Made by a program: the position numbers and the translations under genes
Part shown: piece after piece, positions 1 to 64,000 of the stretch
Layout: each line of letters opens with the position of its first letter
Numbering within the stretch: the first letter of the stretch is position 1
From: Eledone cirrhosa
Lineage: Eukaryota
Assembly (NCBI GenBank): GCA_964016885.1
Contig: OZ024744.1
Coordinates: 132,370,001-132,434,000 of the forward strand
Length of the DNA stretch: 64,000 bases
Direction: 5' to 3'
Notes under the pieces: model-generated
What the model was told of the DNA's origin: nothing
The model's database searches: none
The model's input: the letters and a program-made list of their open reading frames with translations, nothing else

Positions 1-501
1 GTGTTCTAGTTTCAAATTTTGCAGATTAAATTTTTCTCGAAAAACCTAAAAAATCAGTTGTCGAAATCAGAAGTTAATATTTCGTAAAACGCAATTTGAA
101 AAACTCATTAATTTTTTTTCGAAAACTTATTATATAATCAATTTTTTTATACTTTTAGAAATATTTATATCTGATTTCAAATATTGATTTTTTTAGGTTT
201 TTCGAAAACCCTATATAATCAATTTTTTTGTACTTTTAGAAATATCTATATCTGATTTCATGTATTGATTTTTTTATATTTTTCGAAAAAGCTTAGATAA
301 TCAATTTTTTTAGGTCTTTCGAAAACATTATATAATCAATTTTTTTTTAGGTTTTTCGAAAAAACCTTATATAATCAATTTTTTTTAGGTTTTTCAAATA
401 TTGATTTTTTTAGCTTTTTCGACAAAATCTTATATAATCAATTTTTTTTAGGTTTTTCGAAAAAGAATGAATTTGAGTTCATAGTCGAAATATATACTTC
501 T

Positions 502-557
502 GCATTAATCTTTTTACGTTTTTTTGATTTTTTTAAAAAAACGTAAAAAATTAATGC
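502..557. repeat. Near-perfect hairpin in the satellite A core (present in most monomers)
   Basis: GCATTAATCTTTTTACGTTTTTTT ... AAAAAAACGTAAAAAATTAATGC, with one bulged base. A shorter form occurs in the monomers that carry the 30-bp palindrome. Confidence 0.8.
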
Positions 558-1179
558 TTTTACAAATCTTTTGAAATATTTACTTTCTAGTTTCAAATTT
601 TGCAGATTAAATTTTTCTCGAAAAACCTAAAAAATCAGTTGTCGAAATCAGAAGTTAATATTTCGAAAAACGCAATTTGAAAAACTCATATTAATTTTTT
701 TTCGAAAACATTATATAATCAATTTTTTAGAAATATTTATATCTGATTTCAAATATTAATCAATATTTTTAGGTTTTTCGAAAACCCTATATAATCAATT
801 TTTTTGTACTTTTAGAAATATCTATATCTGATTTCATGTATTGATTTTTTTATATTTTTCGAAAAAGCTTAGATAATCAATTTTTTTAGATCTTTCGAAA
901 ACATTATATAATCAATTTTTTTTTAGGTTTTTCGAAAAAACCTTATATAATCAATTCTTTTTAGGTTTTTTCGAAAAATCTTATATAATCAATTTTTTTA
1001 CGTTTTTAGAAAAACCTTATATAATCAATTTTTTTTAGATTTTTCAAAAAACCTTATATAATCAATTTTTTTTGTTTTTTTGAAAAATCTTATATAATCA
1101 ATTTTTTTACGTTTTTAGAAATATTTATATCTGATTTCAAATATTGATTTTTTTTAGGTTTTTCGAATTACCTTATATA

Positions 1180-1243
1180 ATCAATTTTTTTTAGGTTTTT
1201 CAAATTACCATAAGGTAATTTGAAAAACCTAAAAAAAATTGAT
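1180..1243. repeat. Perfect inverted repeat, 30-bp arms with a 4-nt loop, in satellite A
   Basis: ATCAATTTTTTTTAGGTTTTTCAAATTACC-ataa-GGTAATTTGAAAAACCTAAAAAAAATTGAT. Copies at 5738-5801, 30312-30375, 35376-35439, 36797-36860 and 40560-40623. Confidence 0.92.
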
Positions 1244-4200
1244 CTGATTTCAAACATTGATTTTTTTAGCTTTTTCGACAAAATCTTATATAATCAATTT
1301 TCTTTAGGTTTTTCGAAAAAGAATGAATTTGAGTTCATAGTCGAAATATATACTTCTGCATTAATCTTTTTACGTTTTTTTGAAAAAATTAATGCTTTTA
1401 CAAATCTTTTGAAATATTTACTTTCTAGTTTCAAATTTTGCAGATTAAATTTTTCTCGAAAAACCTAAAAAATCAGTTGTCGAAATCAGAAGTTAATATT
1501 TCGTAAAACGCAATTTGAAAAACTCATTAATTTTTTTTCGAAAACTTATTATATAATCAATTTTTTTATACTTTTAGAAATATTTATATCTGATTTCAAA
1601 TATTGATTTTTTTAGGTTTTTCGAAAACCCTATATAATCAATTTTTTTGTACTTTTAGAAATATCTATATCTGATTTCATGTATTGATTTTTTTATATTT
1701 TTCGAAAAAGCTTAGATAATCAATTTTTTTAGGTCTTTCGAAAACATTATATAATCAATTTTTTTTTAGGTTTTTCGAAAAAACCTTATATAATCAATTT
1801 TTTTTAGGTTTTTCAAATATTGATTTTTTTAGCTTTTTCGACAAAATCTTATATAATCAATTTTTTTTAGGTTTTTCGAAAAAGAATGAATTTGAGTTCA
1901 TAGTCGAAATATATACTTCTGCATTAATCTTTTTACGTTTTTTTGATTTTTTTAAAAAAACGTAAAAAATTAATGCTTTTACAAATCTTTTGAAATATTT
2001 ACTTTCTAGTTTCAAATTTTGCAGATTAAATTTTTCTCGAAAAACCTAAAAAATCAGTTGTCGAAATCAGAAGTTAATATTTCGAAAAACGCAATTTGAA
2101 AAACTCATATTAATTTTTTTTCGAAAACATTATATAATCAATTTTTTAGAAATATTTATATCTGATTTCAAATATTGATTTTTTTAGGTTTTTCGAAAAC
2201 CCTATATAATCAATTTTTTTGTACTTTTAGAAATATCTATATCTGATTTCATGTATTGATTTTTTTATATTTTTCGAAAAATCTTATATAATCAATTTTT
2301 TTACGTTTTTAGAAAAACCTTATATAATCAATTTTTTTTAGGTTTTTCGAAAAACCTTATATAATCAATTTTTTTATGTTTTTTCGAAAAATCTTATATA
2401 ATCAATTTTTTTACGTTTTTAGAAATATTTATATCTGATTTCAAATATTGATTTTTTTTAGATTTTTCGAAATACCTTATATAATCAATTTTTTTTAGGT
2501 TTTTCAAATTACCTTATATAATCAATTTTTTTTATCAGATTTCAAATATTGATTTTTTTTAGCTTTTTCGACAAAATCTTATATAATCAATTTTTTTTAG
2601 GTTTTTCGAAAAAGAATGAATTTGAGTTCATAGTCGAAATATATACTTCTGCATTAATCTTTTTACGTTTTTTTGATTTTTTTTAAAAAAACGTAAAAAA
2701 TTAATGCTTTTACAAATCTTTTGAAATATTTACTTTCTAGTTTCAAATTTTGCAGATTAAATTTTTCTCGAAAAACCTAAAAAATCAGTTGTCGAAATCA
2801 GAAGTTAATATTTCGAAAAACGCAATTTGAAAAACTCATATTAATTTTTTTTCGAAAACATTATATAATCAATTTTTTAGAAATATTTATATCTGATTTC
2901 AAATATTGATTTTTTTAGGTTTTTCGAAAACCCTATATAATCAATTTTTTTGTACTTTTAGAAATATCTATATCTGATTTCATGTATTGATTTTTTTATA
3001 TTTTTCGAAAAATTTTATATAATCAATTTTTTTACGTTTTTAGAAAAACCTTATATAATCAATTTTTTTTAGGTTTTTCGAAAAACCTTATATAATCAAT
3101 TTTTTTATGTTTTTTCGAAAAATCTTATATAATCAATTTTTTTACGTTTTTAGAAATATTTATATCTGATTTCAAATATTGATTTTTTTTAGATTTTTCG
3201 AAATACCTTATATAATCAATGTTTTTTAGGTTTTTCAAATTACCTTATATAATCAATTTTTTTTATCAGATTTCAAATATTGATTTTTTTTAGCTTTTTC
3301 GACAAAATCTTATATAATCAATTTTTTTTAGGTTTTTCGAAAAAGAATGAATTTGAGTTCATAGTCGAAATATATACTTCTGCATTAATCTTTTTACGTT
3401 TTTTTGATTTTTTTTAAAAAAACGTAAAAAATTAATGCTTTTACAAATCTTTTGAAATATTTACTTTCTAGTTTCAAATTTTGCAGATTAAATTTTTCTC
3501 GAAAAACCTAAAAAATCAGTTGTCGAAATCAGAAGTTAATATTTCGAAAAACGCAATTTGAAAAACTCATATTAATTTTTTTTCGAAAACATTATATAAT
3601 CAATTTTTTAGAAATATTTATATCTGATTTCAAATATTGATTTTTTTAGGTTTTTCGAAAACCCTATATAATCAATTTTTTTGTACTTTTAGAAATATCT
3701 ATATCTGATTTCATGTATTGATTTTTTTATATTTTTCGAAAAAGCTTAGATAATCAATTTTTTTAGGTCTTTCGAAAACATTATATAATCAATTTTTTTA
3801 CGTTTTTAGAAAAACCTTATATAATCAATTTTTTTTAGGTTTTTCGAAAAACCTTATATAATCAATTTTTTTATGTTTTTTCGAAAAATCTTATATAATC
3901 AATTTTTTTACGTTTTTAGAAATATTTATATCTGATTTCAAATATTGATTTTTTTTAGATATTTCGAAATACCTTATATAATCAATTTTTTTTAGGTTTT
4001 TCAAATTACCTTATATAATCAATTTTTTTTATCAGATTTCAAATATTGATTTTTTTTAGCTTTTTCGACAAAATCTTATATAATCAATTTTTTTTAGGTT
4101 TTTCGAAAAAGAATGAATTTGAGTTCATAGTCGAAATATATACTTCTGCATTAATCTTTTTACGTTTTTTTGATTTTTTTTAAAAAAACGTAAAAAATTA

Positions 4201-6490
4201 ATGCTTTTACAAATCTTTTGAAATATTTACTTTCTAGTTTCAAATTTTGCAGATTAAATTTTTCTCGAAAAACCTAAAAAATCAGTTGTCGAAATCAGAA
4301 GTTAATATTTCGAAAAACGCAATTTGAAAAACTCATATTAATTTTTTTTCGAAAACATTATATAATCAATTTTTTAGAAATATTTATATCTGATTTCAAA
4401 TATTGATTTTTTTAGGTTTTTCGAAAACCCTATATAATCAATTTTTTTGTACTTTTAGAAATATCTATATCTGATTTCATGTATTGATTTTTTTATATTT
4501 TTCGAAAAAGCTTAGATAATCAATTTTTTTAGGTCTTTCGAAAACATTATATAATCAATTTTTTTACGTTTTTAGAAAAACCTTATATAATCAATTTTTT
4601 TTAGGTTTTTCGAAAAACCTTATATAATCAATTTTTTTATGTTTTTTCGAAAAATCTTATATAATCAATTTTTTTACGTTTTTAGAAAAACCTTATATAA
4701 TCAATTTTTTTTAGGTTTTTCGAAAAACCTTATATAATCAATTTTTTTATGTTTTTTCGAAAAATCTTATATAATCAATTTTTTTACGTTTTTAGAAATA
4801 TTTATATCTGATTTCAAATATTGATTTTTTTTAGATTTTTCGAAATACCTTATATAATCAATTTTTTTTAGGTTTTTCAAATCACCTTATATAATCAATT
4901 TTTTTTATCTGATTTCAAATATTGATTTTTTTAGCTTTTTCGACAAAATCTTATATAATCAATTTTTTTTAGGTTTTTCGAAAAAGAATGAATTTGAGTT
5001 CATAGTCGAAATATATACTTCTGCATTAATCTTTTTACGTTTTTTTGATTTTTTTTAAAAAAACGTAAAAAATTAATGCTTTTACAAATCTCTTGAAATA
5101 TTCACTTTCTAGTTTCAAATTTTGCAGATTAAATTTTTCTCGAAAAACCTAAAAAATCAGTTGTCGAAATCAGAAGTTAATATTTCGTAAAACGCAATTT
5201 GAAAAACTCATATTAATTTTTTTTCGAAAACTTATTATATAATCAATTTTTTTATACTTTTAGAAATATTTATATCTGATTTCAAATATTGATTTTTTTA
5301 GGTTTTTCGAAAACCCTATATAATCAATTTTTTTGTACTTTTAGAAATATCTATATCTGATTTCATGTATTGATTTTTTTATATTTTTCGAAAAAGCTTA
5401 GATAATCAATTTTTTTAGGTCTTTCGAAAACATTATATAATCAATTTTTTTTTATATAATCAATTATATAATCAATTCTTTTTAGGTTTTTTCGAAAAAT
5501 CTTATATAATCAATTTTTTTACGTTTTTAGAAAAACCTTATATAATCAATTTTTTTTAGATTTTTCAAAAAACCTTATATAATCAATTTTTTTTAGGTTT
5601 TTCGAAAAACCTTATATAATCAATTTTTTTTGTTTTTTTGAAAAATCTTATATAATCAATTTTTTTACGTTTTTAGAAATATTTATATCTGATTTCAAAT
5701 ATTGATTTTTTTTAGGTTTTTCGAATTACCTTATATAATCAATTTTTTTTAGGTTTTTCAAATTACCATAAGGTAATTTGAAAAACCTAAAAAAAATTGA
5801 TCTGATTTCAAACATTGATTTTTTTAGCTTTTTCGACAAAATCTTATATAATCAATTTTCTTTAGGTTTTTCGAAAAAGAATGAATTTGAGTTCATAGTC
5901 GAAATATATACTTCTGCATTAATCTTTTTACGTTTTTTTGAAAAAATTAATGCTTTTACAAATCTTTTGAAATATTTACTTTCTAGTTTCAAATTTTGCA
6001 GATTAAATTTTTCTCGAAAAACCTAAAAAATCAGTTGTCGAAATCAGAAGTTAATATTTCGTAAAACGCAATTTGAAAAACTCATATTAATTTTTTTTCG
6101 AAAACTTATTATATAATCAATTTTTTTATACTTTTAGAAATATTTATATCTGATTTCAAATATTGATTTTTTTAGGTTTTTCGAAAACCCTATATAATCA
6201 ATTTTTTTGTACTTTTAGAAATATCTATATCTGATTTCATGTATTGATTTTTTTATATTTTTCGAAAAAGCTTAGATAATCAATTTTTTTAGGTCTTTCG
6301 AAAACCTTATATAATCAATTTTTTTTTAGGTTTTTCGAAAAAACCTTATATAATCAATTTTTTTTAGGTTTTTTCGAAAAATCTTACATAATCAATTTTT
6401 TTACGTTTTTAGAAATATTTATATCTGATTTCAAATATTGATTTTTTTTAGATTTTTCGAAATACCTTATTTTTAGGTTTTTCAAATTAC

Positions 6491-6682
6491 CCCGACTTAA
6501 CCCCGACTTAACTTAACCCCAACTTAACTTAACCCCAACTTAACTTAACCCCAACTTAACTTAACCCCAACTTGACTTAACCCCAACATAACTCACACCC
6601 AACTTAACTTACCCCCAACTTAACTTAACCCCAACTTGACTTAACCCCAACTTAACTTAACCCCAACTTAACTTAACGCCAA
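6491..6682 (-). repeat. Inverted (C-rich) island of satellite B at the A/B junction
   Basis: (CCCCAACTTAACTTAA)n, exits via GCCAAAGTCGGAGTT. Twin at 41313-41504. Confidence 0.92.
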
Positions 6683-7071
6683 AGTCGGAGTTAAGTTAAG
6701 TTGGGGTTAAGCTAAGTTGGGGGTAAGTTAAGTTGGGGGTAAGTTAAATTGGGGTTAAGTTAAGTTGGGGTTAAGTTAGGGTTAAGTTAAGTTGGGTATA
6801 AGTTAAGTTGGGGTTGAGTGAAGTTGGGGTTAAGTTAAGTTGGGGTTAAGTTAAGTTAGGGTTAATTTAAGTTGGGGTTAAGTTAAGTTGGGGTTAACTT
6901 AAGTTGGGGTTAAGTTAAGTTGGGGTTAATTTAGGTTGGGGTTAAGTTAAGTTGGGGTTAAGATAAGTTGGGGTTAAGTTAAATTGAGATTAAGTTAACT
7001 TGGGTTTGAGTTAAGTTGGGGATAAGTTAAGTGGTGGTTATGTTAAGTTGGGGTTAAGTTAAGTTGGGGTT

Positions 7072-7416
7072 AACCCCAACTTAACTTAACCCCAACTTAA
7101 CTTAACCCCAACTTCACTCAACCCCAACTTAAATTAACCCCAACTTCACTCAACCCCAACTTAACTCAACCCCAACTTAAATTAACCCCAACTTAACTTA
7201 ACCCTGACTTAACTTAACCCCGACTTAACTTCACCCCGACTTAACTTAACCCCAACTTAACTTAAACCCCAACTTAACTTAACCCCAACTTAACTTAACC
7301 CCAACTTGACTTAACCCCAACTTAACTCACACCCAACTTAACTTACCCCCAACTTAACTTAACCACAACTTGACGTAAACCCAACTTAACTTAACCCCAA
7401 CTTAACTTAACCCCAA
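7072..7416 (-). repeat. Inverted island of satellite B (~345-bp class)
   Basis: Entry GGGGTTAACCCC, exit CCCCAAAGTCGGAGTTCAG, marker GACGTAAACCC. Same class at 13645-13989, 19153-19497, 41878-42222, 49313-49657, 54511-54855 and 60067-60411. Confidence 0.92.
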
Positions 7417-8043
7417 AGTCGGAGTTCAGTTAAGTTGGGGTTCAGTTAAGTTAGGCTTAACTTAAGTTGGGGTTAAGTTAAGTTGGGGGTAAGTTAAGTT
7501 GGGGGTAAGTTAAGTTGGGGTTAAGTTAAGTTGGGGTTAAGTTGGGGTTAAGTTAAGTTAGGGTTAAGTTAAGTTGGGGTTGAGTTAAGTTGGGGTTAAG
7601 TTAAGTGGTGGTTATGTTAAGTTGGGGTTAAGTTAAGTTGGGGTTAAATTAAGTGGGGTTAACTTAAGTTGGGTGTAAGTTAAGTTGGGGTTGAGTGAAG
7701 TTGGGGTTAAGTTAAGTTGGGGTTAAGTTAAGTTAGGGTTAATTTAAGTTGGGGTTATGTTAAGTTGGTGTTAAGTTAAGTTGGGGTTAAGTCGAGTTGG
7801 GGTTAAGTTAAGTTGGGGTTAAGTTAAATTGGTGTTAAGTTAAGTTGGGGTTAAGTTAAGTTGGGGTTAGTTAAGTTGAGTTTAAGTTAAGTTGGGGTTA
7901 ATTTAAGTTGGGGTTAAGTTAAGTTGGGGTTGAGTTAAGTTGTGGTTAAGTTAAGTTGGGGTTAGGTTAAGTTGGGGTTAAGTTAAGCTGGGGTTAAATT
8001 AAGTTGGGGTTAAGTTAAGTTGGGGTTAGGTTAAGTTGGGGTT

Positions 8044-8313
8044 AACCCCAACTTCACTCAACCCCAACTTAACTTAACCCCAACTTCACTCAACCCCAAC
8101 TTAACTCAACCCCAACTTAACTTAACCCCAACTTAACTTAACCCTAACTTAACTTAACCCCGACTTAAACTTAACCCCGACTTAACTTAACCCCAACTTA
8201 ACTTAACCCCAACTTAATTTAACCCCAACTTAACTTAATCCCAACTTGACTTAACCCCAACTTAACTCACACCCAACTTAACTTACCCCCAACTTAACTT
8301 AACTTAACCCCAA
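8044..8313 (-). repeat. Inverted island of satellite B (~220-300-bp class)
   Basis: Entry GGGGTTAACCCC, exit CCCCAAAGTCGGAGTTAAG, marker CGACTTAAACTTAACCCCGAC. Same class at 14649-14865, 20157-20453, 42850-43119, 50317-50613, 55515-55811 and 61071-61367. Confidence 0.92.
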
Positions 8314-8442
8314 AGTCGGAGTTAAGTTAAGTTGGGGTTAAGTTAAGTTAGGCTTAACTTAAGTTGGGGTTAAGTTAAGTTGGGGGTAAGTTAAGTTGGG
8401 GGTAAGTTAAGTTGGGGTTAAGTTAAGTTGGGGTTAAGATAA

Positions 8443-8870
8443 GTGGTGGTTATGTTAAGTTGAGGTTAAGTTAAGTTAGGGTTAAATTAAGTTGGGGTTA
8501 AGTTAAGTTGGGTGTAAGTTAAGTTGGGGTTGAGTGAAGTTGGGGTTAAGTTAAGTTGGGGTTAAGTAGAGTTGGGGTTAAGTTAAGTTGGGGTTAAGTT
8601 AAGTTGGTGTTAAGTTGGGGTTAAGTTAAGTTGGGGTTAAGTTGGGGTTAAGTTAAGTGGTGGTTATGTTAAGTTGAGGTTAAGTTAAGTTAGGGTTAAA
8701 TTAAGTTGGGGTTAAGTTAAGTTGGGTGTAAGTTAAGTTGGGGTTGAGTGAAGTTGGGGTTAAGTTAAGTTGGGGTTAAGTAGAGTTGGGGTTAAGTTAA
8801 GTTGGGGTTAAGTTAAGTTGGTGTTAAGTTGGGGTTAAGTTAAGTTGGGGTTAAGTTGGGGTTAAGTTAA
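8443..8870 (+). repeat. 214-bp local tandem duplication within satellite B
   Basis: The marker GTGGTGGTTATG occurs at 8443, 8657 and 8871; 214 = 12x16 + 2x11. Confidence 0.8.
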
Positions 8871-9789
8871 GTGGTGGTTATGTTAAGTTGGGGTTAACTT
8901 AAGTTGGGGTTAATTTAAATTGGGGTTAAGTTAACTTTGTGGTTAAGTTAAGTTGGGGTTAAGTTAAGTTGGGGTTAAATTAAGTTGGGGTTGAGTGAAG
9001 TTGGGGTTAAGTTAAGTTGGGGTTAAGTTAAGTTGGGGTTAACTTAAGTTGGGTTTAAGTTAAGTTGCGGTTAAGTTAAGTTGGGGTTAAGTTAAGTTGG
9101 GGTTAAGTTAAGTTGGGGTTAAGTTAAGTTGGGGTTAATTTAAGTTGAGGTTATGTTAAGTTGGGGTTAATTTAAGTTGGGGTTAAGTTAAGTTGGGGTT
9201 AAGTTAAGTTGGGGTTAATTTAAGTTGGGATTAAGTTCAGTTGGGGTTAAATTAAGTTGGGGTTAAGTTAAGCTGGGGTTAAATTAAGTTGGGGTTAAGT
9301 TAAGTTGGGGTTAAGTTAAGTTGGGGTTAAGTTAAGTTAGGGTTAATTTAAGTTGGGGTTATGTTAAGTTGGGGTTAAGTTAAGTTGGGGTTAAGTCGAG
9401 TTGGGGTTAAGTTAAGTTGGGGTTAGTTAAGTTGAGTTTAAGTTAAGTTGGGGTTAATTTAAGTTGGGGTTAAGTTAAGTTGGGGTTCAGTTAAGTTGGG
9501 GTTAAGTTAAGTTGGTTTAAGTTAAGTTGGGGTTAGGTTAAGTTGGGGATAAGTTAAGTTGGGGATAAGGTAAGTTGGGGTTAAGTTAAGTTGGGTTTAA
9601 GTTAAGTTGGGGTTAAGTTAAGTTAGGCTTAACTTAAGTTGGGGTTAAGTTAAGTTGGGGGTAAATTAAGTTGGGGGTTAGTTAAGTTGGGGTTAAGTTA
9701 AGTTGGGGTTAAGTTAAGTGGTGGTTATGTTAAGTTGGGGTTAAGTTAAGTTGGGGTTAAATTAAGTTGGGGTTAAGTTATGTTGGGTG

Positions 9790-23252: not shown

Positions 23253-23516
23253 AACCCCAACTTAACTTAACCCCAACTTAACTTAGCCCCAACTTCACTC
23301 AACCCCAACTTAACTTAACCCCAACTTAAGTTAACCCCAACTTAACTTAACCCTAACTTAACTTAACCCCGACTTAACTTAACCCCGACTTAACTTAACC
23401 CCAACTTAACTTAACCCCAACTTAACTTAACCCCAACTTAACTTAATCCCAACTTGACTTAACCCCAACTTAACTCACACCCAACTTAACTTACTCCCAA
23501 ATTAACTTAACCCCAA
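23253..23516 (-). repeat. Diverged inverted island of satellite B
   Basis: Entry GGGGTTAACCCC; mutated exit CCCCAAAATCGGAGTTAC; several private substitutions. Confidence 0.9.
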
Positions 23517-45380: not shown

Positions 45381-45439
45381 TGTTAAGTTGGGGTTAAGTT
45401 AAGTTGGGGTTAAATTAAGTTGGGGTTAAGTTATGTTGG

Positions 45440-51400: not shown

Positions 51401-54400
51401 GTCGGGGTTAAGTTAAGTCGGTGTTAAGTTAAGTTAGGGTTAAGTTAAGTTGGGGTTAAGTTAAGTTGGCTTTAAGTTAAGCTGGGGTTAAGTTAAGTTG
51501 GGGTTAAATTAAGTTGGGGTTAAGTTAAGTTGGGGTTAGGTTAAGTTTGGGTTAGGTTAAGTTGGGGTTAAATTAAGTTGGGGTTAAGTTAAGTTGGGGT
51601 TAAGTTAAGTTGGGGTTAGGTTAAGTTGGGGATAAGTTAAGTTGGGGATAATTTAAGTTGGGGTTAAGTTAAGTTGGGTTTAAGTTAAGCTGGGGTTAAG
51701 TTAAGTTGGGGTTAAATTAAGTTGGGGTTAAGTTAAGTTGGGGTTAAGTTAAATTTGGGTTAGGTTAAGTTGGGGATTAGTTAAGTTGGGGATAAGTTAA
51801 GTTGGGGTTAAGTTAAGTTGGGTTTAAGTTAAGTTGTGGTTAAGTTAAGTTGGGGTTAAGTTAAGTTGGGGGTTAAGTTAAGTTGGGGTTAGGTTAAGTT
51901 GGGGATAAGTTAAGTTGGGGATAATTTAAGTTGGGGTTAAGTTAAGTTGGGTTTAAGTTAAGCTGGGGTTAAGTTAAGTTGGGGTTAAATTAAGTTGGGT
52001 TTAAGTTAAGTTGGGGTTAAGTTAAGTCGGGGTTAAGTTAAGTTGGGGTTGAGTTAAGTTGGGGTTATTTTAAGTTGAGGTTATGTTAAGTTGGGGTTAA
52101 TTTAAGTTGGGGTTAAGTTAAGTTGGGGTTAATTTAAGTTGGGGTTAAGTTCAGTTGGGGTTAATTTAAGTTGGGGTTAAGTTAAGTTGGGTTTAAGTTA
52201 AGTTGGGGTTAAGTTAAGTTGGGGTTAAGTTAAGTTGGGTTTAAGTTAAGTTGGGGCTAAGTTAAGTTGGGTCTAATTTGAGTTGGGGTTAAGTTAAGTT
52301 GGGGTTAAGTTAAGTTGAGGTTAAATTAAGTTGGGGTTAATTAAGTTGGGGTTAAGTTAAGTTGGGGTTAAGTTAAGTTGAGGTTAAGTTAACTTGGGGT
52401 TAAGTTAAGTTGGGGTTAAGTTAAGTTGGGGTTGAGTTAAGTTGGGGTTGAGTTAAGTTGGGGTTAAGTTAAGTTGGGGTTAAGTTAAGTTGGGGTTAAG
52501 TTAAGTTGGGGTTAATTTAAGTTCGGGTTAAGTTAAGTTCGGGGTAAGCTAAGTTGGGGTTAAGTTAAATCGGGTCTAAGTTAAGTGGGAGGTTAAGTTA
52601 AGTTGGGGTTGAGTTAAGTTGTGGTTAAGTTAACTTGAGGTTAAGTTAAGTTAAGTTTGAGTTAAGTTGGGGTTAAGTTGGGGTTAAGTTAAGTTGGGGT
52701 TAAGTTACGTTGGGGTTAAGTTAAGTTGGGGTTAAGTTGAGGTTAAGTTAAGTTGTGGTTAAGTTAAGTTGGGGCTAAGTTAAGTTGGGGCTAAGTTAAG
52801 TTGGGGTTAAGTTAAGTTGGGGTTAATTTAAGTTGGGGTTAGGTTAAGTTGGGGATAAGTTAAGTTGGGGATAAGTTAAGTTGGGGTTAAGTTAAGTTGG
52901 GTTTACGTTAAGCTGGGGTTAAGTTAAGTTGGGGTTAAATTAAGTTGGGGTTAAGTTAAGTTTGGGTTAGGTTAAGTTGGGGATAAGTTAAGTTGGGGAT
53001 AAGTTAAGTTGGGGTTAAGTTAAGTTGGGTTTAAGTTAAGTTGGGGTTAAGTTAAGTTGGGGTTAAGTTAAGTTGGGGTTAGGTTAAGTTGGGGTTAACC
53101 CCAACTTAACTTAACCCCAACTTAACTTAACCCCAACTTAACTTAACCCTAACTTAACTTAACCCCGACTTAACGTAAGCCCGACTTAACTTAACCCCAT
53201 CTTAACTTACCCCCAAACTTAACTTAACCCCAAAGTCGGAGTTAAGTTGGGGTTAAGTTAAGTTGGGGTTAAGTTAAGTGGTGGTTATGTTAAGTTGGGG
53301 TTAAGTTAAGTTGGGGTTAAATTAAGTTGGGGTTAAGTGAAGTTGGGTGTAAGTTAAGTTGGGGTTGAGTGAAGTTGGGGTTAAGTTAAGTTGGGGTTAA
53401 GTAGAGTTGGGGTTAAGTTAAGTTGGGGTTAAGTTAAGTTGGTGTTAAGTTGGGGTTAAGTTAAGTTGGGGTTAAGTTAAGTTGGGGTTGAGTGAAGTTG
53501 GGGTTAAGTTAAGTTGGGGTTAAATTAATTTGGGGTTAACTTAAGTTGGGTTTAAGTTAAGTTGCGGTTAAGTTAAGTTGGGGTTAAGTTAAGTTGGGGT
53601 TAAGTTAAGTCGGGGTTAAGTTAAGTTGGGGTTGAGTTAAGTTGGGGTTATTTTAAGTTGAGGTTATGTTAAGTTGGGGTTAATTTAAGTTGGGGTTAAG
53701 TTAAGTTGGGGTTAATTTAAGTTGGGGTTAAGTTCAGTTGGGGTTAATTTAAGTTGGGGTTAAGTTAAGTTGGGTTTAAGTTAAGTTGGGGTTAAGTTAA
53801 GTTGGGGTTAAGTTAAGTTGGGTTTAAGTTAAGTTGGGGCTAAGTTAAGTTGGGTCTAATTTGAGTTGGGGTTAAGTTAAGTTGGGGTTAAGTTAAGTTG
53901 AGGTTAAATTAAGTTGGGGTTAATTAAGTTGGGGTTAAGTTAAGTTGGGGTTAAGTTAAGTTGAGGTTAAGTTAACTTGGGGTTAAGTTAAGTTGGGGTT
54001 AAGTTAAGTTGGGGTTGAGTTAAGTTGGGGTTGAGTTAAGTTGGGGTTAAGTTAAGTTGGGGTTAGGTTAAGTTGGGGATAAGTTAAGTTGGGGATAAGT
54101 TAAGTTGGGGTTAAGTTAAGTTGGGTTTAAGTTAAGTTGGGGTTAAGTTAAGTTGGGGTTAAGTTAAGTTGGGGTTAAGTTAAGTTGCGGTTAGTTAAGT
54201 TGAGTTTAAGTTAAGTTGGGGTTAATTTAAGTTGGGGTTAAGTTAAGTTGGGGTTCAGTTAAGTTGGGGTTAAGTCAAGTTGGGGTTAAGTTAAGTTGGG
54301 GTTAAGTTAAGTTGGGGTTAGGTTAAGTTGGGGATAATTTAAGTTGGGGATAAGCTAAGTTGGGGTTAAGTTAAGTTGGGTTTAAGTTAAGTTGGGGTTA

Positions 54401-57400
54401 AGTTAAGTTGGGGTTAAATTAAGTTGGGGTTAAGTTAAGCTGGGGTTAAATTAAGTTGGGGTTATGTTAAGTTGGGGTTAAGTTAAGTTGGGGTTAGTTT
54501 AAGTGGGGTTAACCCCAACTTAACTTAACCCCAACTTAACTTAACCCCAACTTCACTCAACCCCAACTTAAATTAACCCCAACTTCACTCAACCCCAACT
54601 TAACTCAACCCCAACTTAAATTAACCCCAACTTAACTTAACCCTGACTTAACTTAACCCCGACTTAACTTAACCCCGACTTAACTTAACCCCAACTTAAC
54701 TTAAACCCCAACTTAACTTAACCCCAACTTAACTTAACCCCAACTTGACTTAACCCCAACTTAACTCACACCCAACTTAACTTACCCCCAACTTAACTTA
54801 ACCACAACTTGACGTAAACCCAACTTAACTTAACCCCAACTTAACTTAACCCCAAAGTCGGAGTTCAGTTAAGTTGGGGTTCAGTTGAGTTAGGCTTAAC
54901 TTAAGTTGGGGTTAAGTTAAGTTGGGGGTAAGTTAAGTTGGGGGTAAGTTAAGTTGGGGTTAAGTTAAGTTGGGGTTAAGTTGGGGTTAAGTTAAGTTAG
55001 GGTTAAGTTAAGTTGGGGTTGAGTTAAGTTGGGGTTAAGTTAAGTGGTGTTTATGTTAAGTTGGGGTTAAGTTAAGTTGGGGTTAAATTAAGTGGGGTTA
55101 ACTTAAGTTGGGTGTAAGTTAAGGTGGGGTTGAGTGAAGTTGGGGTTAAGTTAAGTTGGGGTTAAGTTAAGTTAGGGTTAATTTAAGTTGGGGTTATGTT
55201 AAGTTGGTGTTAAGTTAAGTTGGGGTTAAGTCGAGTTGGGGTTAAGTTAAGTTGGGGTTAAGTTAAATTGGTGTTAAGTTAAGTTGGGGTTAAGTTAAGT
55301 TGGGGTTAGTTAAGTTGAGTTTAAGTTAAGTTGGGGTTAATTTAAGTTGGGGTTAAGTTAAGTTGGGGTTCAGTTAAGTTGGGGTTAAGTTAAGTTGGGG
55401 TTGAGTTAAGTTGTGGTTAAGTTAAGTTGGGGTTAGGTTAAGTTGGGGTTAAGTTAAGCTGGGGTTAAATTAAGTTGGGGTTAAGTTAAGTTGGGGTTAG
55501 GTTAAGTTGGGGTTAACCCCAACTTAACTTAACCCCAACTTAACTTAACCCCAACTTCACTCAACCCCAACTTAACTTAACCCCAACTTCACTCAACCCC
55601 AACTTAACTCAACCCCAACTTAACTTAACCCCAACTTAACTTAACCCTAACTTAACTTAACCCCGACTTAAACTTAACCCCGACTTAACTTAACCCCAAC
55701 TTAACTTAACCCCAACTTAACTTAACCCCAACTTAACTTAATCCCAACTTGACTTAACCCCAACTTAACTCACACCCAACTTAACTTACCCCCAACTTAA
55801 CTTAACCCCAAAGTCGGAGTTAAGTTAAGTTGGGGTTAAGTTAAGTTAGGCTTAACTTAAGTTGGGGTTAAGTTAAGTTGGGGGTAAGTTAAGTTGGGGG
55901 TAAGTTAAGTTGGGGTTAAGTTAAGTTGGGGTTAAGATAAGTGGTGGTTATGTTAAGTTGAGGTTAAGTTAAGTTAGGGTTAAATTAAGTTGGGGTTAAG
56001 TTAAGTTGGGTGTAAGTTAAGTTGGGGTTGAGTGAAGTTGGGGTTAAGTTAAGTTGGGGTTAAGTAGAGTTGGGGTTAAGTAAAGTTGGGGTTAAGTTAA
56101 GTTGGTGTTAAGTTGGGGTTAAGTTGGGGTTAAGTTAAGTGGTGGTTATGTTAAGTTGGGGTTAAATTAAGTTGGGGTTAATTTAAATTGGGGTTAAGTT
56201 AACTTTGTGGTTAAGTTAAGTTGGGGTTAAGTTAAGTTGGGGTTAAATTAAGTTGGGGTTGAGTGAAGTTGGGGTTAAGTTAAGTTGGGGTTAAGTTAAG
56301 TTAGGGTTAATTTAAGTTGGGGTTATGTTAAGTTGGGGTTAAGTTAAGTTGGGGTTAAGTAGAGTTGGGGTTAAGTTAAGTTGGGGTTAAGTTAAGTTGG
56401 TGTTAAGTTGGGGTTAAGTTAAGTTGGGGTTAAGTTAAGTCGGAGTTAAGTTAAGTTGGGGTTGAGTTAAGTTGGGGTTAATTTAAGTTGAGGTTATGTT
56501 AAGTTGGGGTTAATTTAAGTTGGGGTTAATTTAAGTTGGGGTTAAGTTAAGTTGGGGTTAAGTTGAGGTTAAGTTAAGTTGTGGTTAAGTTAAGTTGGGG
56601 CTAAGTTAAGTTGGGGCTAAGTTAAGTTGGGGCTAAGTTAAGTTGGGGTTAAGTTAAGTTGGGGTTAAGTTAAGTTGGGTTTAATTTAAGTTGGGGTCAA
56701 CTTAAGTTGGGGTTAAGTTGAGTTGGGGTTAAATTAAGTTGGGGTTAATTTAAGTTGGGGCTAAGTTAAGTTGGGGCTGAGTTAAGTTGGGGTTAAGTTA
56801 AGTTGGGGTTAAGTTAAGTTGGGGTTAAGTTAATTTTGGGTTAAGTTAAGTTGTGTTTCAGTTAAGTTGGGGTTAAGTTAAGTTTGGGTTAATTTGGGGT
56901 TAAATTAAGTTGGGGTTAAGTTAAGTTGGGGTTAAGTTAAGTTGGGGTTAAGTTAAGTTGGGGTTAATTTAAGTTGGGGTTAAGTTAAGTCGGGGTTAAG
57001 TTAAGTCGGTGTTAAGTTAAGTTAGGGTTAAGTTAAGTTGGGGTTAAGTTAAGTTGGCTTTAAGTTAAGCTGGGGTTAAGTTAAGTTGGGGTTAAATTAA
57101 GTTGGGGTTAAGTTAAGTTGGGGTTAGGTTAAGTTTGGGTTAGGTTAAGTTGGGGTTAAATTAAGTTGGGGTTAAGTTAAGTTGGGGTTAAGTTAAGTTG
57201 GGGTTAGGTTAAGTTGGGGATAAGTTAAGTTGGGGATAATTTAAGTTGGGGTTAAGTTAAGTTGGGTTTAAGTTAAGCTGGGGTTAAGTTAAGTTGGGGT
57301 TAAATTAAGTTGGGGTTAAGTTAAGTTGGGGTTAAGTTAAATTTGGGTTAGGTTAAGTTGGGGATTAGTTAAGTTGGGGATAAGTTAAGTTGGGGTTAAG

Positions 57401-60400
57401 TTAAGTTGGGTTTAAGTTAAGTTGTGGTTAAGTTAAGTTGGGGTTAAGTTAAGTTGGGGGTTAAGTTAAGTTGGGGTTAGGTTAAGTTGGGGATAAGTTA
57501 AGTTGGGGATAATTTAAGTTGGGGTTAAGTTAAGTTGGGTTTAAGTTAAGCTGGGGTTAAGTTAAGTTGGGGTTAAATTAAGTTGGGTTTAAGTTAAGTT
57601 GGGGTTAAGTTAAGTCGGGGTTAAGTTAAGTTGGGGTTGAGTTAAGTTGGGGTTATTTTAAGTTGAGGTTATGTTAAGTTGGGGTTAATTTAAGTTGGGG
57701 TTAAGTTAAGTTGGGGTTAATTTAAGTTGGGGTTAAGTTCAGTTGGGGTTAATTTAAGTTGGGGTTAAGTTAAGTTGGGTTTAAGTTAAGTTGGGGTTAA
57801 GTTAAGTTGGGGTTAAGTTAAGTTGGGTTTAAGTTAAGTTGGGGCTAAGTTAAGTTGGGTCTAATTTGAGTTGGGGTTAAGTTAAGTTGGGGTTAAGTTA
57901 AGTTGAGGTTAAATTAAGTTGGGGTTAATTAAGTTGGGGTTAAGTTAAGTTGGGGTTAAGTTAAGTTGAGGTTAAGTTAACTTGGGGTTAAGTTAAGTTG
58001 GGGTTAAGTTAAGTTGGGGTTGAGTTAAGTTGGGGTTGAGTTAAGTTGGGGTTAAGTTAAGTTGGGGTTAAGTTAATTGGGGTTAAGTTAAGTTGGGGTT
58101 AATTTAAGTTCGGGTTAAGTTAAGTTCGGGGTAAGCTAAGTTGGGGTTAAGTTAAATCGGGTCTAAGTTAAGTGGGAGGTTAAGTTAAGTTGGGGTTGAG
58201 TTAAGTTGTGGTTAAGTTAACTTGAGGTTAAGTTAAGTTAAGTTTGAGTTAAGTTGGGGTTAAGTTGGGGTTAAGTTAAGTTGGGGTTAAGTTACGTTGG
58301 GGTTAAGTTAAGTTGGGGTTAAGTTGAGGTTAAGTTAAGTTGTGGTTAAGTTAAGTTGGGGCTAAGTTAAGTTGGGGCTAAGTTAAGTTGGGGTTAAGTT
58401 AAGTTGGGGTTAATTTAAGTTGGGGTTAGGTTAAGTTGGGGATAAGTTAAGTTGGGGATAAGTTAAGTTGGGGTTAAGTTAAGTTGGGTTTACGTTAAGC
58501 TGGGGTTAAGTTAAGTTGGGGTTAAATTAAGTTGGGGTTAAGTTAAGTTTGGGTTAGGTTAAGTTGGGGATAAGTTAAGTTGGGGATAAGTTAAGTTGGG
58601 GTTAAGTTAAGTTGGGGTTTAAGTTAAGTTGGGGTTAAGTTAAGTTGGGGTTAAGTTAAGTTGGGGTTAGGTTAAGTTGGGGTTAACCCCAACTTAACTT
58701 AACCCCAACTTAACTTAACCCCAACTTAACTTAACCCTAACTTAACTTAACCCCGACTTAACGTAAGCCCGACTTAACTTAACCCCATCTTAACTTACCC
58801 CCAAACTTAACTTAACCCCAAAGTCGGAGTTAAGTTGGGGTTAAGTTAAGTTGGGGTTAAGTTAAGTGGTGGTTATGTTAAGTTGGGGTTAAGTTAAGTT
58901 GGGGTTAAATTAAGTTGGGGTTAAGTTAAGTTGGGTGTAAGTTAAGTTGGGGTTGAGTGAAGTTGGGGTTAAGTTAAGTTGGGGTTAAGTAGAGTTGGGG
59001 TTAAGTTAAGTTGGGGTTAAGTTAAGTTGGTGTTAAGTTGGGGTTAAGTTAAGTTGGGGTTAAGTTAAGTTGGGGTTGAGTGAAGTTGGGGTTAAGTTAA
59101 GTTGGGGTTAAATTAATTTGGGGTTAACTTAAGTTGGGTTTAAGTTAAGTTGCGGTTAAGTTAAGTTGGGGTTAAGTTAAGTTGGGGTTAAGTTAAGTCG
59201 GGGTTAAGTTAAGTTGGGGTTGAGTTAAGTTGGGGTTATTTTAAGTTGAGGTTATGTTAAGTTGGGGTTAATTTAAGTTGGGGTTAAGTTAAGTTGGGGT
59301 TAATTTAAGTTGGGGTTAAGTTCAGTTGGGGTTAATTTAAGTTGGGGTTAAGTTAAGTTGGGTTTAAGTTAAGTTGGGGTTAAGTTAAGTTGGGGTTAAG
59401 TTAAGTTGGGTTTAAGTTAAGTTGGGGCTAAGTTAAGTTGGGTCTAATTTGAGTTGGGGTTAAGTTAAGTTGGGGTTAAGTTAAGTTGAGGTTAAATTAA
59501 GTTGGGGTTAATTAAGTTGGGGTTAAGTTAAGTTGGGGTTAAGTTAAGTTGAGGTTAAGTTAACTTGGGGTTAAGTTAAGTTGGGGTTAAGTTAAGTTGG
59601 GGTTGAGTTAAGTTGGGGTTGAGTTAAGTTGGGGTTAAGTTAAGTTGGGGTTAGGTTAAGTTGGGGATAAGTTAAGTTGGGGATAAGTTAAGTTGGGGTT
59701 AAGTTAAGTTGGGTTTAAGTTAAGTTGGGGTTAAGTTAAGTTGGGGTTAAGTTAAGTTGGGGTTAAGTTAAGTTGCGGTTAGTTAAGTTGAGTTTAAGTT
59801 AAGTTGGGGTTAATTTAAGTTGGGGTTAAGTTAAGTTGGGGTTCAGTTAAGTTGGGGTTAAGTTAAGTTGGGGTTAGGTTAAGTTGGGGATAATTTAAGT
59901 TGGGGATAAGCTAAGTTGGGGTTAAGTTAAGTTGGGTTTAAGTTAAGTTGGGGTTAAGTTAAGTTGGGGTTAAATTAAGTTGGGGTTAAGTTAAGCTGGG
60001 GTTAAATTAAGTTGGGGTTATGTTAAGTTGGGGTTAAGTTAAGTTGGGGTTAGTTTAAGTGGGGTTAACCCCAACTTAACTTAACCCCAACTTAACTTAA
60101 CCCCAACTTCACTCAACCCCAACTTAAATTAACCCCAACTTCACTCAACCCCAACTTAACTCAACCCCAACTTAAATTAACCCCAACTTAACTTAACCCT
60201 GACTTAACTTAACCCCGACTTAACTTAACCCCGACTTAACTTAACCCCAACTTAACTTAAACCCCAACTTAACTTAACCCCAACTTAACTTAACCCCAAC
60301 TTGACTTAACCCCAACTTAACTCACACCCAACTTAACTTACCCCCAACTTAACTTAACCACAACTTGACGTAAACCCAACTTAACTTAACCCCAACTTAA

Positions 60401-61820
60401 CTTAACCCCAAAGTCGGAGTTCAGTTAAGTTGGGGTTCAGTTGAGTTAGGCTTAACTTAAGTTGGGGTTAAGTTAAGTTGGGGGTAAGTTAAGTTGGGGG
60501 TAAGTTAAGTTGGGGTTAAGTTAAGTTGGGGTTAAGTTGGGGTTAAGTTAAGTTAGGGTTAAGTTAAGTTGGGGTTGAGTTAAGTTGGGGTTAAGTTAAG
60601 TGGTGTTTATGTTAAGTTGGGGTTAAGTTAAGTTGGGGTTAAATTAAGTGGGGTTAACTTAAGTTGGGTGTAAGTTAAGGTGGGGTTGAGTGAAGTTGGG
60701 GTTAAGTTAAGTTGGGGTTAAGTTAAGTTAGGGTTAATTTAAGTTGGGGTTATGTTAAGTTGGTGTTAAGTTAAGTTGGGGTTAAGTCGAGTTGGGGTTA
60801 AGTTAAGTTGGGGTTAAGTTAAATTGGTGTTAAGTTAAGTTGGGGTTAAGTTAAGTTGGGGTTAGTTAAGTTGAGTTTAAGTTAAGTTGGGGTTAATTTA
60901 AGTTGGGGTTAAGTTAAGTTGGGGTTCAGTTAAGTTGGGGTTAAGTTAAGTTGGGGTTGAGTTAAGTTGTGGTTAAGTTAAGTTGGGGTTAGGTTAAGTT
61001 GGGGTTAAGTTAAGCTGGGGTTAAATTAAGTTGGGGTTAAGTTAAGTTGGGGTTAGGTTAAGTTGGGGTTAACCCCAACTTAACTTAACCCCAACTTAAC
61101 TTAACCCCAACTTCACTCAACCCCAACTTAACTTAACCCCAACTTCACTCAACCCCAACTTAACTCAACCCCAACTTAACTTAACCCCAACTTAACTTAA
61201 CCCTAACTTAACTTAACCCCGACTTAAACTTAACCCCGACTTAACTTAACCCCAACTTAACTTAACCCCAACTTAACTTAACCCCAACTTAACTTAATCC
61301 CAACTTGACTTAACCCCAACTTAACTCACACCCAACTTAACTTACCCCCAACTTAACTTAACCCCAAAGTCGGAGTTAAGTTAAGTTGGGGTTAAGTTAA
61401 GTTAGGCTTAACTTAAGTTGGGGTTAAGTTAAGTTGGGGGTAAGTTAAGTTGGGGGTAAGTTAAGTTGGGGTTAAGTTAAGTTGGGGTTAAGATAAGTGG
61501 TGGTTGTGTTAAGTTGAGGTTAAGTTAAGTTAGGGTTAAATTAAGTTGGGATTAAGTTAAGTTGGGTGTAAGTTAAGTTGGGGTTGAGTGAAGTTGGGGT
61601 TAAGTTAAGTTGGGGTTAAGTAGAGTTGGGGTTAAGTAAAGTTGGGGTTAAGTTAAGTTGGTGTTAAGTTGGGGTTAAGTTGGGGTTAAGTTAAGTGGTG
61701 GTTATGTTAAGTTGGGGTTAAATTAAGTTGGGGTTAATTTAAATTGGGGTTAAGTTAACTTTGTGGTTAAGTTAAGTTGGGGTTAAGTTAAGTTGGGGTT
61801 AAATTAAGTTGGGGTTGAGT
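45440..61820 (+). repeat. ~5.2-5.6-kb higher-order repeat of satellite B, three copies
   Basis: Island triplets start at 47899/49313/50317, 53097/54511/55515 and 58685/60067/61071 (periods 5,198 then 5,588/5,556). End points are approximate. Confidence 0.9.
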
Positions 61821-64000
61821 GAAGTTGGGGTTAAGTTAAGTTGGGGTTAACTTAAGTTGGGTTTAAGTTAAGTTGCGGTTAAGTTAAGTTGGGGTTAAGT
61901 TAAGTTGGGGTTAAGTTAAGTCGGGGTTAATTTAAGTTGGGGTTGAGTTAAGTTGAGGTTAATTTAAGTTGAGGTTATGTTAAGTTGGGGTTAATTTAAG
62001 TTGGGGTTAAGTTAAATTGGGGTTAAGTTAAGTTGGGGTTAATTTAAGTTGGGATTAAGTTCAGTTGGGGTTAAATTAAGTTGGGGTTAAGTTAAGCTGG
62101 GGTTAAATTAAGTTGGGGTTAAGTTAAGTTGGGGTTAAGTTAAGTTGGGGTTAAGTTAAGCTAGGGTTAATTTAAGTTGGGGTTATGTTAAGTTGGGGTT
62201 AAGTTAAGTTGGGGTTAAGTCGAGTTGGGGTTAAGTTAAGTTGGGGTTAGTTAAGTTGAGTTTAAGTTAAGTTGGGGTTAATTTAAGTTGGGGTTAAGTT
62301 AAGTTGGGGTTCAGTTAAGTTGGGGTTAAGTTAAGTTGGGGTTAAGTTAAGTTGGTTTAAGTTAAGTTGGGGTTAGGTTAAGTTGGGGATAAGTTAAGTT
62401 GGGGATAAGCTAAGTTGGGGTTAAGTTAAGTTGGGTTTAAGTTAAGTTGGGGTTAAGTTAAGTTAGGCTTAACTTAAGTTGGGGTTAAGTTAAGTTGGGG
62501 GTAAATTAAGTTGGGGGTAAGTTAAGTTGGGGTTAAGTTAAGTTGGGGTTAAGTTAAGTGGTGGTTATGTTAAGTTGGGGTTAAGTTAAGTTGGGGTTAA
62601 ATTAAGTTGGGGTTAAGTTATGTTGGGTGTAAGTTAAGTTGGGGTTGAGTGAAGTTGGGGTTAAGTTAAGTTGGGGTTAAGTTAAGTTAGGGTTAATTTA
62701 AGTTGGGGTTATGTTAAGTTGGGGTTAAGTTAAGTTGGGGTTAAGTAGAGTTGGGGTTAAGTTAAGTTGGGGTTAAGTTAAGTTGGTGTTAAGTTGGGGT
62801 TAAGTTAAGTTGGGGTTAAGTTAAGTCGGGGTTAAGTTAAGTTGGGGTTGAGTTAAGTTGGGGTTAATTTAAGTTGAGGTTATGTTAAGTTGGGGTTAAT
62901 TTAAGTTGGGGTTAATTTAAGTTGGGGTTAAGTTAAGTTGGGGTTAAGTTGAGGTTAAGTTAAGTTGTGGTTAAGTTAAGTTGGGGCTAATTTAAGTTGG
63001 GGCTAAGTTAAGTTGGGGCTAAGTTAAGTTGGGGTTAATTTAAGTTGGGGTTAAGTTAAGTTGGGTTTAATTTAAGTTGGGGTCAACTTAAGTTGGGGTT
63101 AATTTGAGTTGGGGTTAAATTAAGTTGGGGTTAATTTAAGTTGGGGCTAAGTTAAGTTGGGGCTGAGTTAAGTTGGGGTTAAGTTAAGTTGGGGTTAAGT
63201 TAAGTTGGGGTTAAGTTAATTTTGGGTTAAGTTAAGTTGTGGTTCAGTTAAGTTGGGGTTAAGTTAAGTTTGGGTTAATTTGGGTTTAAATTAAGTTGGG
63301 GTTAAGTTAAGTTGGGGTTAAGTTAAGTTGGGGTTAAGTTAAGTTGGGGTTAATTTAAGTTGGGGTTAAGTTAAGTCGGGGTTAAGTTAAGTCGGTGTTA
63401 AGTTAAGTTAGGGTTAAGTTAAGTTGGGGTTAAGTTAAGTTGGCTTTAAGTTAAGCTGGGGTTAAGTTAAGTTGGGGTTAAATTAAGTTTTGGTTAAGTT
63501 AAGTTGGGGTTAGGTTAAGTTTGGGTTAGGTTATATGGGGTTAAATTAAGTTGGGGTTAAGTTAAGTTGGGGTTAAGTTAAGTTGGGGTTAGGTTAAGTT
63601 GGGGATAAGTTAAGTTGGGGATAATTTAAGTTGGGGTTAAGTTAAGTTGGGTTTAAGTTAAGCTGGGGTTAAGTTAAGTTGGGGTTAAATTAAGTTGGGG
63701 TTAAGTTAAGTTGGGGTTAAGTTAAGTTTGGGTTAGGTTAAGTTGGGGATTAGTTAAGTTGGGGATAAGTTAAGTTGGGGTTAAGTTAAGTTGGGTTTAA
63801 GTTAAGTTGTGGTTAAGTTAAGTTGGGGTTAAGTTAAGTTGGGGGTTAAGTTAAGTTGGGGTTAGTTAAGTTTAGTTTAAGTTAAGTTGGGGTTAATTTA
63901 AGTTGGGGTTAAGTTAAGTTGGGGTTCAGTTAAGTTGGGGATAAGTCAAGTTGGGGTTAAGTTAAGTTGGGGTTAAGTTAAGTTGGGGTTAGGTTAAGTT

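What the first reader, a model, noticed from the sequence alone, without database searches (positions are those of the whole stretch)
1..64000. Two unrelated satellites fused into a 29-41 kb composite macro-repeat with nested periodicities
Seen: blocks alternate A-B-A-B, with base-identical A-to-B junctions (~6490 and ~41312) and the same order of private variants in both copies. Nesting in B runs 5-mer, 16-mer, 214/863-bp duplications, ~5.5-kb HOR, macro-unit. Nesting in A runs 37-bp subrepeat, 0.56-0.89-kb monomer, 5,184-bp HOR, macro-unit. Established: higher-order repeats are typical of centromeric satellites (e.g. primate alpha satellite), and complex recombination-maintained repeats cap chromosomes in telomerase-lacking Diptera such as Chironomus. 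Inference: a unit coupling an AT-rich, dyad-rich module to a G-strand-biased telomere-like module could be a structural chromosome element (centromere or non-canonical telomere/subtelomere). Function cannot be read from this window.
Basis: partly seen in the sequence, partly recalled or inferred. Interest (0 to 1): 0.8.

Follow-up and report, generated by a model that had tools for sequence, protein, structure and literature searches.

The report
Candidate centromere satellite with telomere-like partner
The alternating repeat blocks are real, and the AT-rich one belongs to a repeat family found at one internal region on each of 12 of this animal's 27 chromosome-sized sequences, so it likely marks the centromeres (of what is probably an octopus) rather than a chromosome end.

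Summary
The A-B-A-B pattern, the identical junctions and all nested periods are real. The '29-41 kb unit' is not a fixed length: junction spacing runs from 4.7 to 49 kb over at least 30 copies (C28:132.01-132.79 Mb). These AT-rich A cassettes sit inside an ~8.3-Mb array of the 16-mer B. In 264 kb read contiguously, 10 of 10 B-to-A and 9 of 10 A-to-B junctions are the same.

The telomere reading fails. The genome has canonical TTAGGG ends (4 of 27 ends sampled), and no sampled end carries A or B.

A is one subfamily of a 16-22% GC satellite family sharing a 13-bp box. It occurs at one region on each of 12 of 27 chromosome-scale contigs. The 11 loci outside C28 lie at 0.30-0.68 of contig length, most of them among shared companion satellites. 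This makes A the best candidate for centromeric DNA; CENP-A binding is untested, and 15 contigs gave no A locus under sparse sampling.

The cassette layout is known from Tribolium madens. The organism is probably an octopod (recalled SINE, not tested), and six searches found no described cephalopod centromere satellite.

The parts
1..6490 (+). Satellite A block 1: 18-19% GC, 37-bp subrepeat inside 563-893-bp monomers; begins about 845 bp left of the window
6479..6501 (+). A-to-B junction, with an overlap of about 3 bp between A and inverted B; same junction in 9 of 10 A blocks in 264 kb
6491..28310 (+). Satellite B block 1: 16-mer TTAAGTTAAGTTGGGG, G-rich on +, with short inverted C-strand blocks
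8440..8890 (+). 214-bp internal duplication in B
9794..20350 (+). 5,508-bp higher-order duplication in B
28288..28323 (+). B-to-A junction, joined within a shared TTAGG that is part of the A box; same junction in 10 of 10 A blocks in 264 kb
28311..41312 (+). Satellite A block 2 (17 monomers), carrying the shared 13-bp box GAAAAACCTAAAA
32005..41127 (+). 5,184-bp higher-order duplication in A (3,939 bp exact)
41301..41323 (+). Second A-to-B junction, identical to the first over 471 bp
41313..64000 (+). Satellite B block 2 with 863-bp duplication (43673) and 5.2-5.6-kb higher-order periods; runs on about 5.2 kb beyond the window

Best explanation
The window lies in a 0.78-Mb run of AT-rich satellite cassettes inside an ~8.3-Mb G-rich satellite array, and it is likely part of this chromosome's centromere region, with the A family as the predicted centromere-core DNA and B as a chromosome-specific flanking satellite. 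Shown: A belongs to a family with a shared 13-bp box found at one region on each of 12 chromosome-scale contigs; the two A/B junctions are reused almost unchanged while the number of A and B copies between them varies; A cores are most alike (99.6-100%) at 132.28-132.50 Mb. Inferred: one joining event at each side, through 3-5-bp microhomology, put an A block into B. Unequal exchange or replicative duplication with breakpoints inside A or inside B then copied the junction pair many times and changed the internal copy numbers. B is inferred to derive from a degenerate telomere-like 32-mer that flanks A on other chromosomes. Predicted, untested: CENP-A chromatin sits on the young A cassettes, as on the A arrays of the other chromosomes.
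For: (1) Distribution. In the five rare-variant searches whose hits were all listed, 193 of 196 hits fall in one region per contig; the other 3 were fetched and are lone chance matches. With, loci are on C1, C2, C4, C6, C7, C8, C9, C10, C14, C18, C25 and C28, each checked by fetching. (2) Position. All 11 loci outside C28 lie at 0.295-0.68 of contig length (implied arm ratios 1.0-2.4); P = 5e-4 if positions were uniform and the central half is the test. (3) A 13-bp box is shared by all 11 arrays compared although pairwise 14-mer sharing falls to 2%; it is also in the C6, C7, C8 and C14 loci and absent from the other 190,400 fetched bases. (4) Companion satellites recur at these loci: a 32-mer on C2, C18, C25, C916; a 25-mer on C1, C4, C7; a 20-mer on C2, C7; degenerate TTAGGG on C7 (at least 8.4 kb) and C14. 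Assembly gaps adjoin the C1, C25 and C28 loci. (5) Layered homogenisation on C28: 99.6-100% pairwise at 132.28-132.50 Mb, 98.9-99.4% on both sides, and an older layer 89% identical to the window at 128.56 and 129.1 Mb. (6) 16-22% GC, CpG observed/expected 2.1-4.4, and folding energy more than 2 sd below shuffles in 9 of 10 subfamilies. (7) Raw reads of two other samples show flat depth across the B-to-A junction (7 and about 2 reads).
Against: No A locus was found on 15 of 27 chromosome-scale contigs, including the 379-Mb C3. The searches sampled only rare variants and two lists were cut off, so absence is not shown, but neither is presence on all chromosomes. C8 and C14 hold only remnants of about 1-2.5 kb. 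No CENP-A, methylation, Hi-C or FISH data were available. Perfect short-dyad coverage was clearly above shuffles in only 1 of 10 subfamilies, and B also folds better than its shuffles, so folding is not specific to A. On C28 the family is spread over three patches (124.63, 128.56-129.6, 132.01-132.79 Mb), and the young patch ends at a 200-N gap after which B is inverted, so its far end is unknown. B's likeness to TTAGGG is weak: 18 of 500 shuffled units score as high. The box was picked after the fact as the longest shared word.
Confidence: 0.62

Rival explanations
1. The A family marks pericentromeric heterochromatin, an inactive centromere relic or a fusion scar. The kinetochore sits on neighbouring DNA (B, retroelements or unassembled sequence), and the A/B cassettes are passive products of satellite turnover.
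For: 15 of 27 contigs without a detected locus; tiny remnants on C8 and C14; interstitial telomere repeats abutting A on C7; two A subfamilies 0.68 Mb apart at the midpoint of C2. Junction conservation needs no selection, since whole-block duplication carries junctions along.
Against: Giant contigs of 379-443 Mb probably arose from several fusions (inference), yet C1, C2 and C4 each show one region, near the middle. The box persists across otherwise divergent subfamilies. Homogenisation peaks inside the A-richest part.
Confidence: 0.28
2. A recombination-maintained non-canonical telomere or subtelomere, as in Chironomus.
For: B is G-strand biased with G4 runs (mean G4Hunter 0.99) and lies in the distal 7% of C28.
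Against: Canonical TTAGGG arrays at 4 of 27 sampled ends, A or B at 0 of 27; about 1.1 Mb of other sequence distal to B; B also at the midpoint of C2; B changes strand 119 times in 264 kb.
Confidence: 0.03
3. Mis-assembly or a single segmental duplication.
For: Near-identical repeats; a gap and strand flip at about 132.794 Mb; no long reads were available, so block lengths and order are unverified.
Against: At least 30 junction copies with graded variants; no N in the 264 kb read; a private LINE fragment in one A block; short reads of other samples cover the B-to-A junction, 5 of 7 in one run with the other allele.
Confidence: 0.05

Closest known systems
Tribolium madens TmSat2 cassettes within TmSat1 (PMC13081366; abstract and section 7 read)
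   Same: A minor satellite embedded as cassettes in a major one; two conserved transition zones; variable internal copy number; conserved inversion points; multi-megabase putative (peri)centromeric domains up to 9.7 Mb.
   Different: There the two satellites share a ~110-bp ancestor, occur on all chromosomes and form kilobase-scale symmetric macro-dyads. Here A and B are unrelated in sequence, the A/B mixture was seen only on C28, and inversions in B are short (134-343 bp).
Meloidogyne incognita CenH3-associated repeats with a 19-bp box (PMC8097292; abstract seen)
   Same: Divergent tandem repeats that share one short conserved box.
   Different: That system is holocentric and shown by ChIP-seq. 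Here there is one region per chromosome, a 13-bp box (18 bp in most subfamilies), and no ChIP.
Primate alpha satellite with chromosome-specific higher-order repeats and the CENP-B box (recalled; only search listings seen)
   Same: Chromosome-specific subfamilies, higher-order repeats, a young homogeneous core flanked by older layers, other satellites alongside.
   Different: No fixed 171-bp monomer (units of about 91, 108, 276, 390 and 730 bp by subfamily); far lower GC; assembled arrays mostly 25-300 kb; no sequence relationship claimed.
Pericentromeric interstitial telomeric and telomere-similar repeats (PMC9498494; passages seen)
   Same: Degenerate telomere-like repeats next to centromeric satellites.
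   Different: B is only weakly telomere-like (TTAGGG 63 times in about 2,780 units), so its origin is inferred.
Chironomus ~350-bp telomeric satellites (PMC9498494; passages seen)
   Same: Complex strand-biased tandem repeats.
   Different: Not terminal here, and this genome has TTAGGG telomeres.

Membership tests
Monocentric centromeric satellite | Occupied by CENP-A/CenH3 nucleosomes | not testable with these tools
   No chromatin data; molluscs have CENP-A (PMC12210499, passages)
Monocentric centromeric satellite | One region per chromosome where present | tested here: met
   193 of 196 fully listed hits in one region per contig, 3 chance singles; on C28 the region is ~8 Mb wide with three patches
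Monocentric centromeric satellite | Present on all chromosomes | tested here: inconclusive
   12 of 27 found by sparse rare-variant sampling
Monocentric centromeric satellite | Coincides with the primary constriction | not testable with these tools
   Only positions on contigs
Monocentric centromeric satellite | Higher-order repeats and layered homogenisation | tested here: met
Monocentric centromeric satellite | Dyad symmetry or non-B potential above background | tested here: inconclusive
   Folding energy below shuffles in 9 of 10 subfamilies, perfect-dyad coverage clearly so in 1 of 10; B also folds
Cassette-type intermingled satellites (T. madens) | Two conserved transition zones with variable internal copy number | tested here: met
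   10 of 10 and 9 of 10 junctions; A blocks 1.4-40.9 kb
Cassette-type intermingled satellites (T. madens) | Both satellites from a common ancestral unit, with kilobase macro-dyads | tested here: not met
   A and B differ in unit and composition (no formal alignment test run); inverted blocks in B are 134-343 bp
Non-canonical (Chironomus-type) telomere | Terminal position on chromosomes | tested here: not met
   0 of 27 sampled ends
Non-canonical (Chironomus-type) telomere | Genome lacks telomerase-type repeats at ends | tested here: not met
   TTAGGG arrays at C18 end and at C7, C13, C19 starts
Interstitial telomere-derived satellite (B) | Sequence descent from TTAGGG | tested here: inconclusive
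   18 of 500 shuffles reach B's score, 6 of 500 for the 32-mer; B vs 32-mer 0 of 500

The most novel reading that the evidence does not exclude
The A family is the centromeric DNA of an octopod genome, with a 13-18-bp palindrome-forming box that contains TTAGG acting as a conserved protein-binding or seeding element. Centromeres are built as A cores joined at that box to telomere-derived satellites. The double A loci on C2, C7 and C10 and the telomere array abutting A on C7 record centric and telomere-centromere fusions that built this karyotype.
Probability: 0.3. Interest if true: 0.8.

Novelty: new member of a known kind. Interest (0 to 1): 0.57.

Why it matters
If right, it gives coordinates and probe sequences for centromeres on 12 chromosomes of an animal group, probably coleoid cephalopods, for which six searches of the held library returned no described centromeric DNA. 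A 2026 cuttlefish genome paper still names centromere labelling as a need for settling karyotypes (PMC13218726, passage). It would make centromere position, arm ratios and the type of fusion behind the giant chromosomes directly testable. The composite unit alone is a known layout and would score lower.

Tried and rejected
Telomere reading rejected. Fixed 29-41 kb unit rejected. Three lone pattern hits (C2:193.7, C2:238.3, C3:224.4 Mb) were fetched and dropped as chance. Rfam gave no match in the window or four loci. Attempts to fix the taxon with a LINE reverse-transcriptase frame from C28:123 Mb gave only eukaryotic or marine-invertebrate relatives at 67% identity or less, so the octopod label stays recalled. 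No RNA holder was listed. Run X4 (organism B, share 0.21) matches A at low depth; not used as evidence of conservation in another species. One search listed no record bridging the A-to-B junction; one search shows depth across the B-to-A junction but lists no single bridging read. Summed contig depths were not used as copy numbers. No short-loop G-quadruplex motif in 3.8 kb of B (0; 33 with loops up to 12). Earlier scan notes: none for this genome, two unrelated bacterial notes. Papers checked without a useful passage: PMC12682272, bioRxiv 2022.06.24.497555. No supplements were read; supplements of cephalopod genome papers and subscription papers could hold centromere repeat annotations that I did not see.
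Full report
Observation. The window has four blocks: A (18-19% GC) at 1-6490 and 28311-41312, and B (36-39% GC, G skew up to 0.96) at 6491-28310 and 41313-64000.

Surroundings. The window is G000:C28:132,370,001-132,434,000, in a 3.0-Gb assembly of 1,796 contigs; C28 is 136.5 Mb. Samples show B filling about 127.0-135.3 Mb, with other sequence at 126.9 and from 135.4 Mb on. A occurs as islands at 128.56-129.6 Mb, at 132.01-132.79 Mb, and as a small inverted copy at 124.63 Mb. In 264 kb read contiguously (132.240-132.504 Mb, no N) there are 10 A blocks of 1.4-40.9 kb making up 41% of the sequence. Ten of 10 B-to-A junctions and 9 of 10 A-to-B junctions are the same. Across the 30 full-length junction hits in 132.11-132.78 Mb the median spacing is 18 kb and 4 of 29 spacings fall in 29-41 kb; only 40 of 455 candidates were scored, so 30 is a lower bound. 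The unit is therefore a junction pair with variable filling, not a fixed macro-monomer. B also has 64 C-to-G and 55 G-to-C strand switches of a few conserved types. The young domain ends at a 200-N gap near 132.794 Mb, after which B is inverted. Raw short reads of two other samples give flat depth across the B-to-A junction, 7 reads in X6 and about 2 in X8; single bridging reads were not listed.

Not a telomere. Of 27 sampled ends (half of the 54 ends of the 27 chromosome-scale contigs; 300-10,000 bases each), 4 carry TTAGGG arrays and none carries A or B. B also occurs, inside a 520-bp composite unit, at the midpoint of the 416-Mb C2.

A is one subfamily of a genome-wide family. Next to that C2 array lies an A-like satellite, and a shared pattern found another on C1. 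Because hit lists stop at 100, I searched for rare one-letter variants of the shared motif to thin them. In the five searches listed in full, 193 of 196 hits fall in one region per contig, and the 3 others are chance singles. Two further lists were cut off (100 of 148 and 100 of 2,832). Together they give loci on C1, C2, C4, C6, C7, C8, C9, C10, C14, C18, C25 and C28, plus unplaced C916, all checked by fetching. That is 12 of 27; none was found on C3, C5, C11-13, C15, C17, C19-24, C26 or C27. The arrays have 16-22% GC and different units, and 14-mer sharing between subfamilies falls to 2%, yet one 13-mer, GAAAAACCTAAAA, is in all 11 arrays compared, in the four loci found later, and in none of the other 190,400 fetched bases. 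The 11 loci outside C28 lie at 0.295-0.68 of contig length, 0.50-0.57 on the three giant contigs that have one; C28's is at 0.97. Most loci share companion satellites: a B-related 32-mer directly against A on C18 (both sides), C25, C916 and C2; a 25-mer on C1, C4 and C7; a 20-mer on C2 and C7; and degenerate telomere repeats on C7 (at least 8.4 kb, joined to A) and C14. The sampled flanks of C8, C9 and C10 showed no such companion.

Mechanism. Shown by the sequence: the B-to-A junction falls within a TTAGG shared by a B variant and the A box, and the A-to-B junction overlaps by about 3 bases. A cores are 99.6-100% alike at 132.28-132.50 Mb, 98.9-99.4% on either side, 89% to the older C28 layer, 87-88% to C18 and C25, 81% to C10 and about 64% to C6 and C7. 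Inferred: one microhomology-mediated join on each side created a cassette, and unequal exchange within A or B then amplified it and changed its filling, newest copies in the middle. From established knowledge of satellite centromeres (recalled), one region per chromosome, chromosome-specific higher-order subfamilies, a shared box, a young core in older layers, shared flanking satellites and adjoining gaps are what centromeres look like. I put the centromere-core reading at 0.62 and a pericentromeric or relic reading at 0.28. Against it: 15 contigs without a locus, remnants only on C8 and C14, mixed dyad results (folding below shuffles in 9 of 10 subfamilies but also in B; perfect dyads clearly enriched in 1 of 10), and no chromatin data. 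A possible reason for the misses is that telocentric centromeres lie in unassembled ends, which would also explain why the loci found are central; this is untested and does not explain C3. B's descent from telomere repeats is weakly supported (18 of 500 shuffles as good), its kinship with the 32-mer better (0 of 500).

Organism. An animal with TTAGGG telomeres and LINEs related to those of marine invertebrates. A SINE found in 19 fetched loci I recall from octopus sequences; no call confirms this, so 'octopod' is recalled.

Known systems. The cassette layout matches Tribolium madens TmSat2 in TmSat1: two conserved transition zones, variable copy number, conserved inversion points, domains up to 9.7 Mb (PMC13081366, abstract and section 7), except that those satellites are related. 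A shared box among divergent repeats matches Meloidogyne CenH3 DNA (PMC8097292, abstract). Chironomus-type telomeres fail both defining tests (PMC9498494, passages). Six searches listed no paper describing cephalopod centromeric DNA; the library lacks most subscription papers and I read no supplements.

Verdict. A real feature and a new member of a known kind. The composite repeat is less odd than first thought, but it leads to a mapped, testable candidate centromere family. Interest 0.57.

Noticed in passing
G000:C28 (whole contig): C28 (136.5 Mb) is listed after the 22.4-Mb C27, out of size order; by recalled convention this marks a sex chromosome, so the ~8-Mb B expansion may be sex-linked. 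Untested.
   Followed up: no
L013 (G000:C28:126.000-126.003 Mb): GC- and CpG-rich tandem repeats (172, 317, 730 bp) with short stretches that look like rRNA fragments (recalled); no Rfam match at gathering score.
   Followed up: partly
L041, L069 (C2:209.17-209.88 Mb): Two different A subfamilies flank a 0.68-Mb array of a 520-bp composite unit (B 16-mers plus a CpG-rich spacer) at the chromosome midpoint; could be a centric-fusion scar. A related spacer repeat lies at C28:126.4 Mb (L099).
   Followed up: partly
L143, L089 (C7:29.466-29.474 Mb): At least 8.4 kb of degenerate interstitial telomere repeat joined directly to the A array at the box, oriented like a former chromosome end.
   Followed up: partly
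G000:C28:132,444,180-132,444,420: A private LINE-like fragment of about 220 bp inserted in one A block; a unique anchor for read mapping.
   Followed up: no
L070 (C916) and L068 (C25:19.87-19.94 Mb): Unplaced contig C916 shares all its repeated 14-mers with the C25 array; probably a second haplotype or a missing piece of that locus.
   Followed up: partly
L086:5000-8000 (C14:23.163-23.166 Mb): A ~678-bp repeat of 60% GC with inverted segments, next to telomere-like repeats and A remnants; no Rfam match.
   Followed up: partly
L006-L011 (C28:118-124 Mb): Further satellites of 64, 90 and 41 bp proximal to B; the 64-mer appears at 118, 120 and 121 Mb.
   Followed up: no
C1-C4: Four giant contigs of 379-443 Mb against 22-136 Mb for the rest, suggesting repeated fusions.
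   Followed up: no
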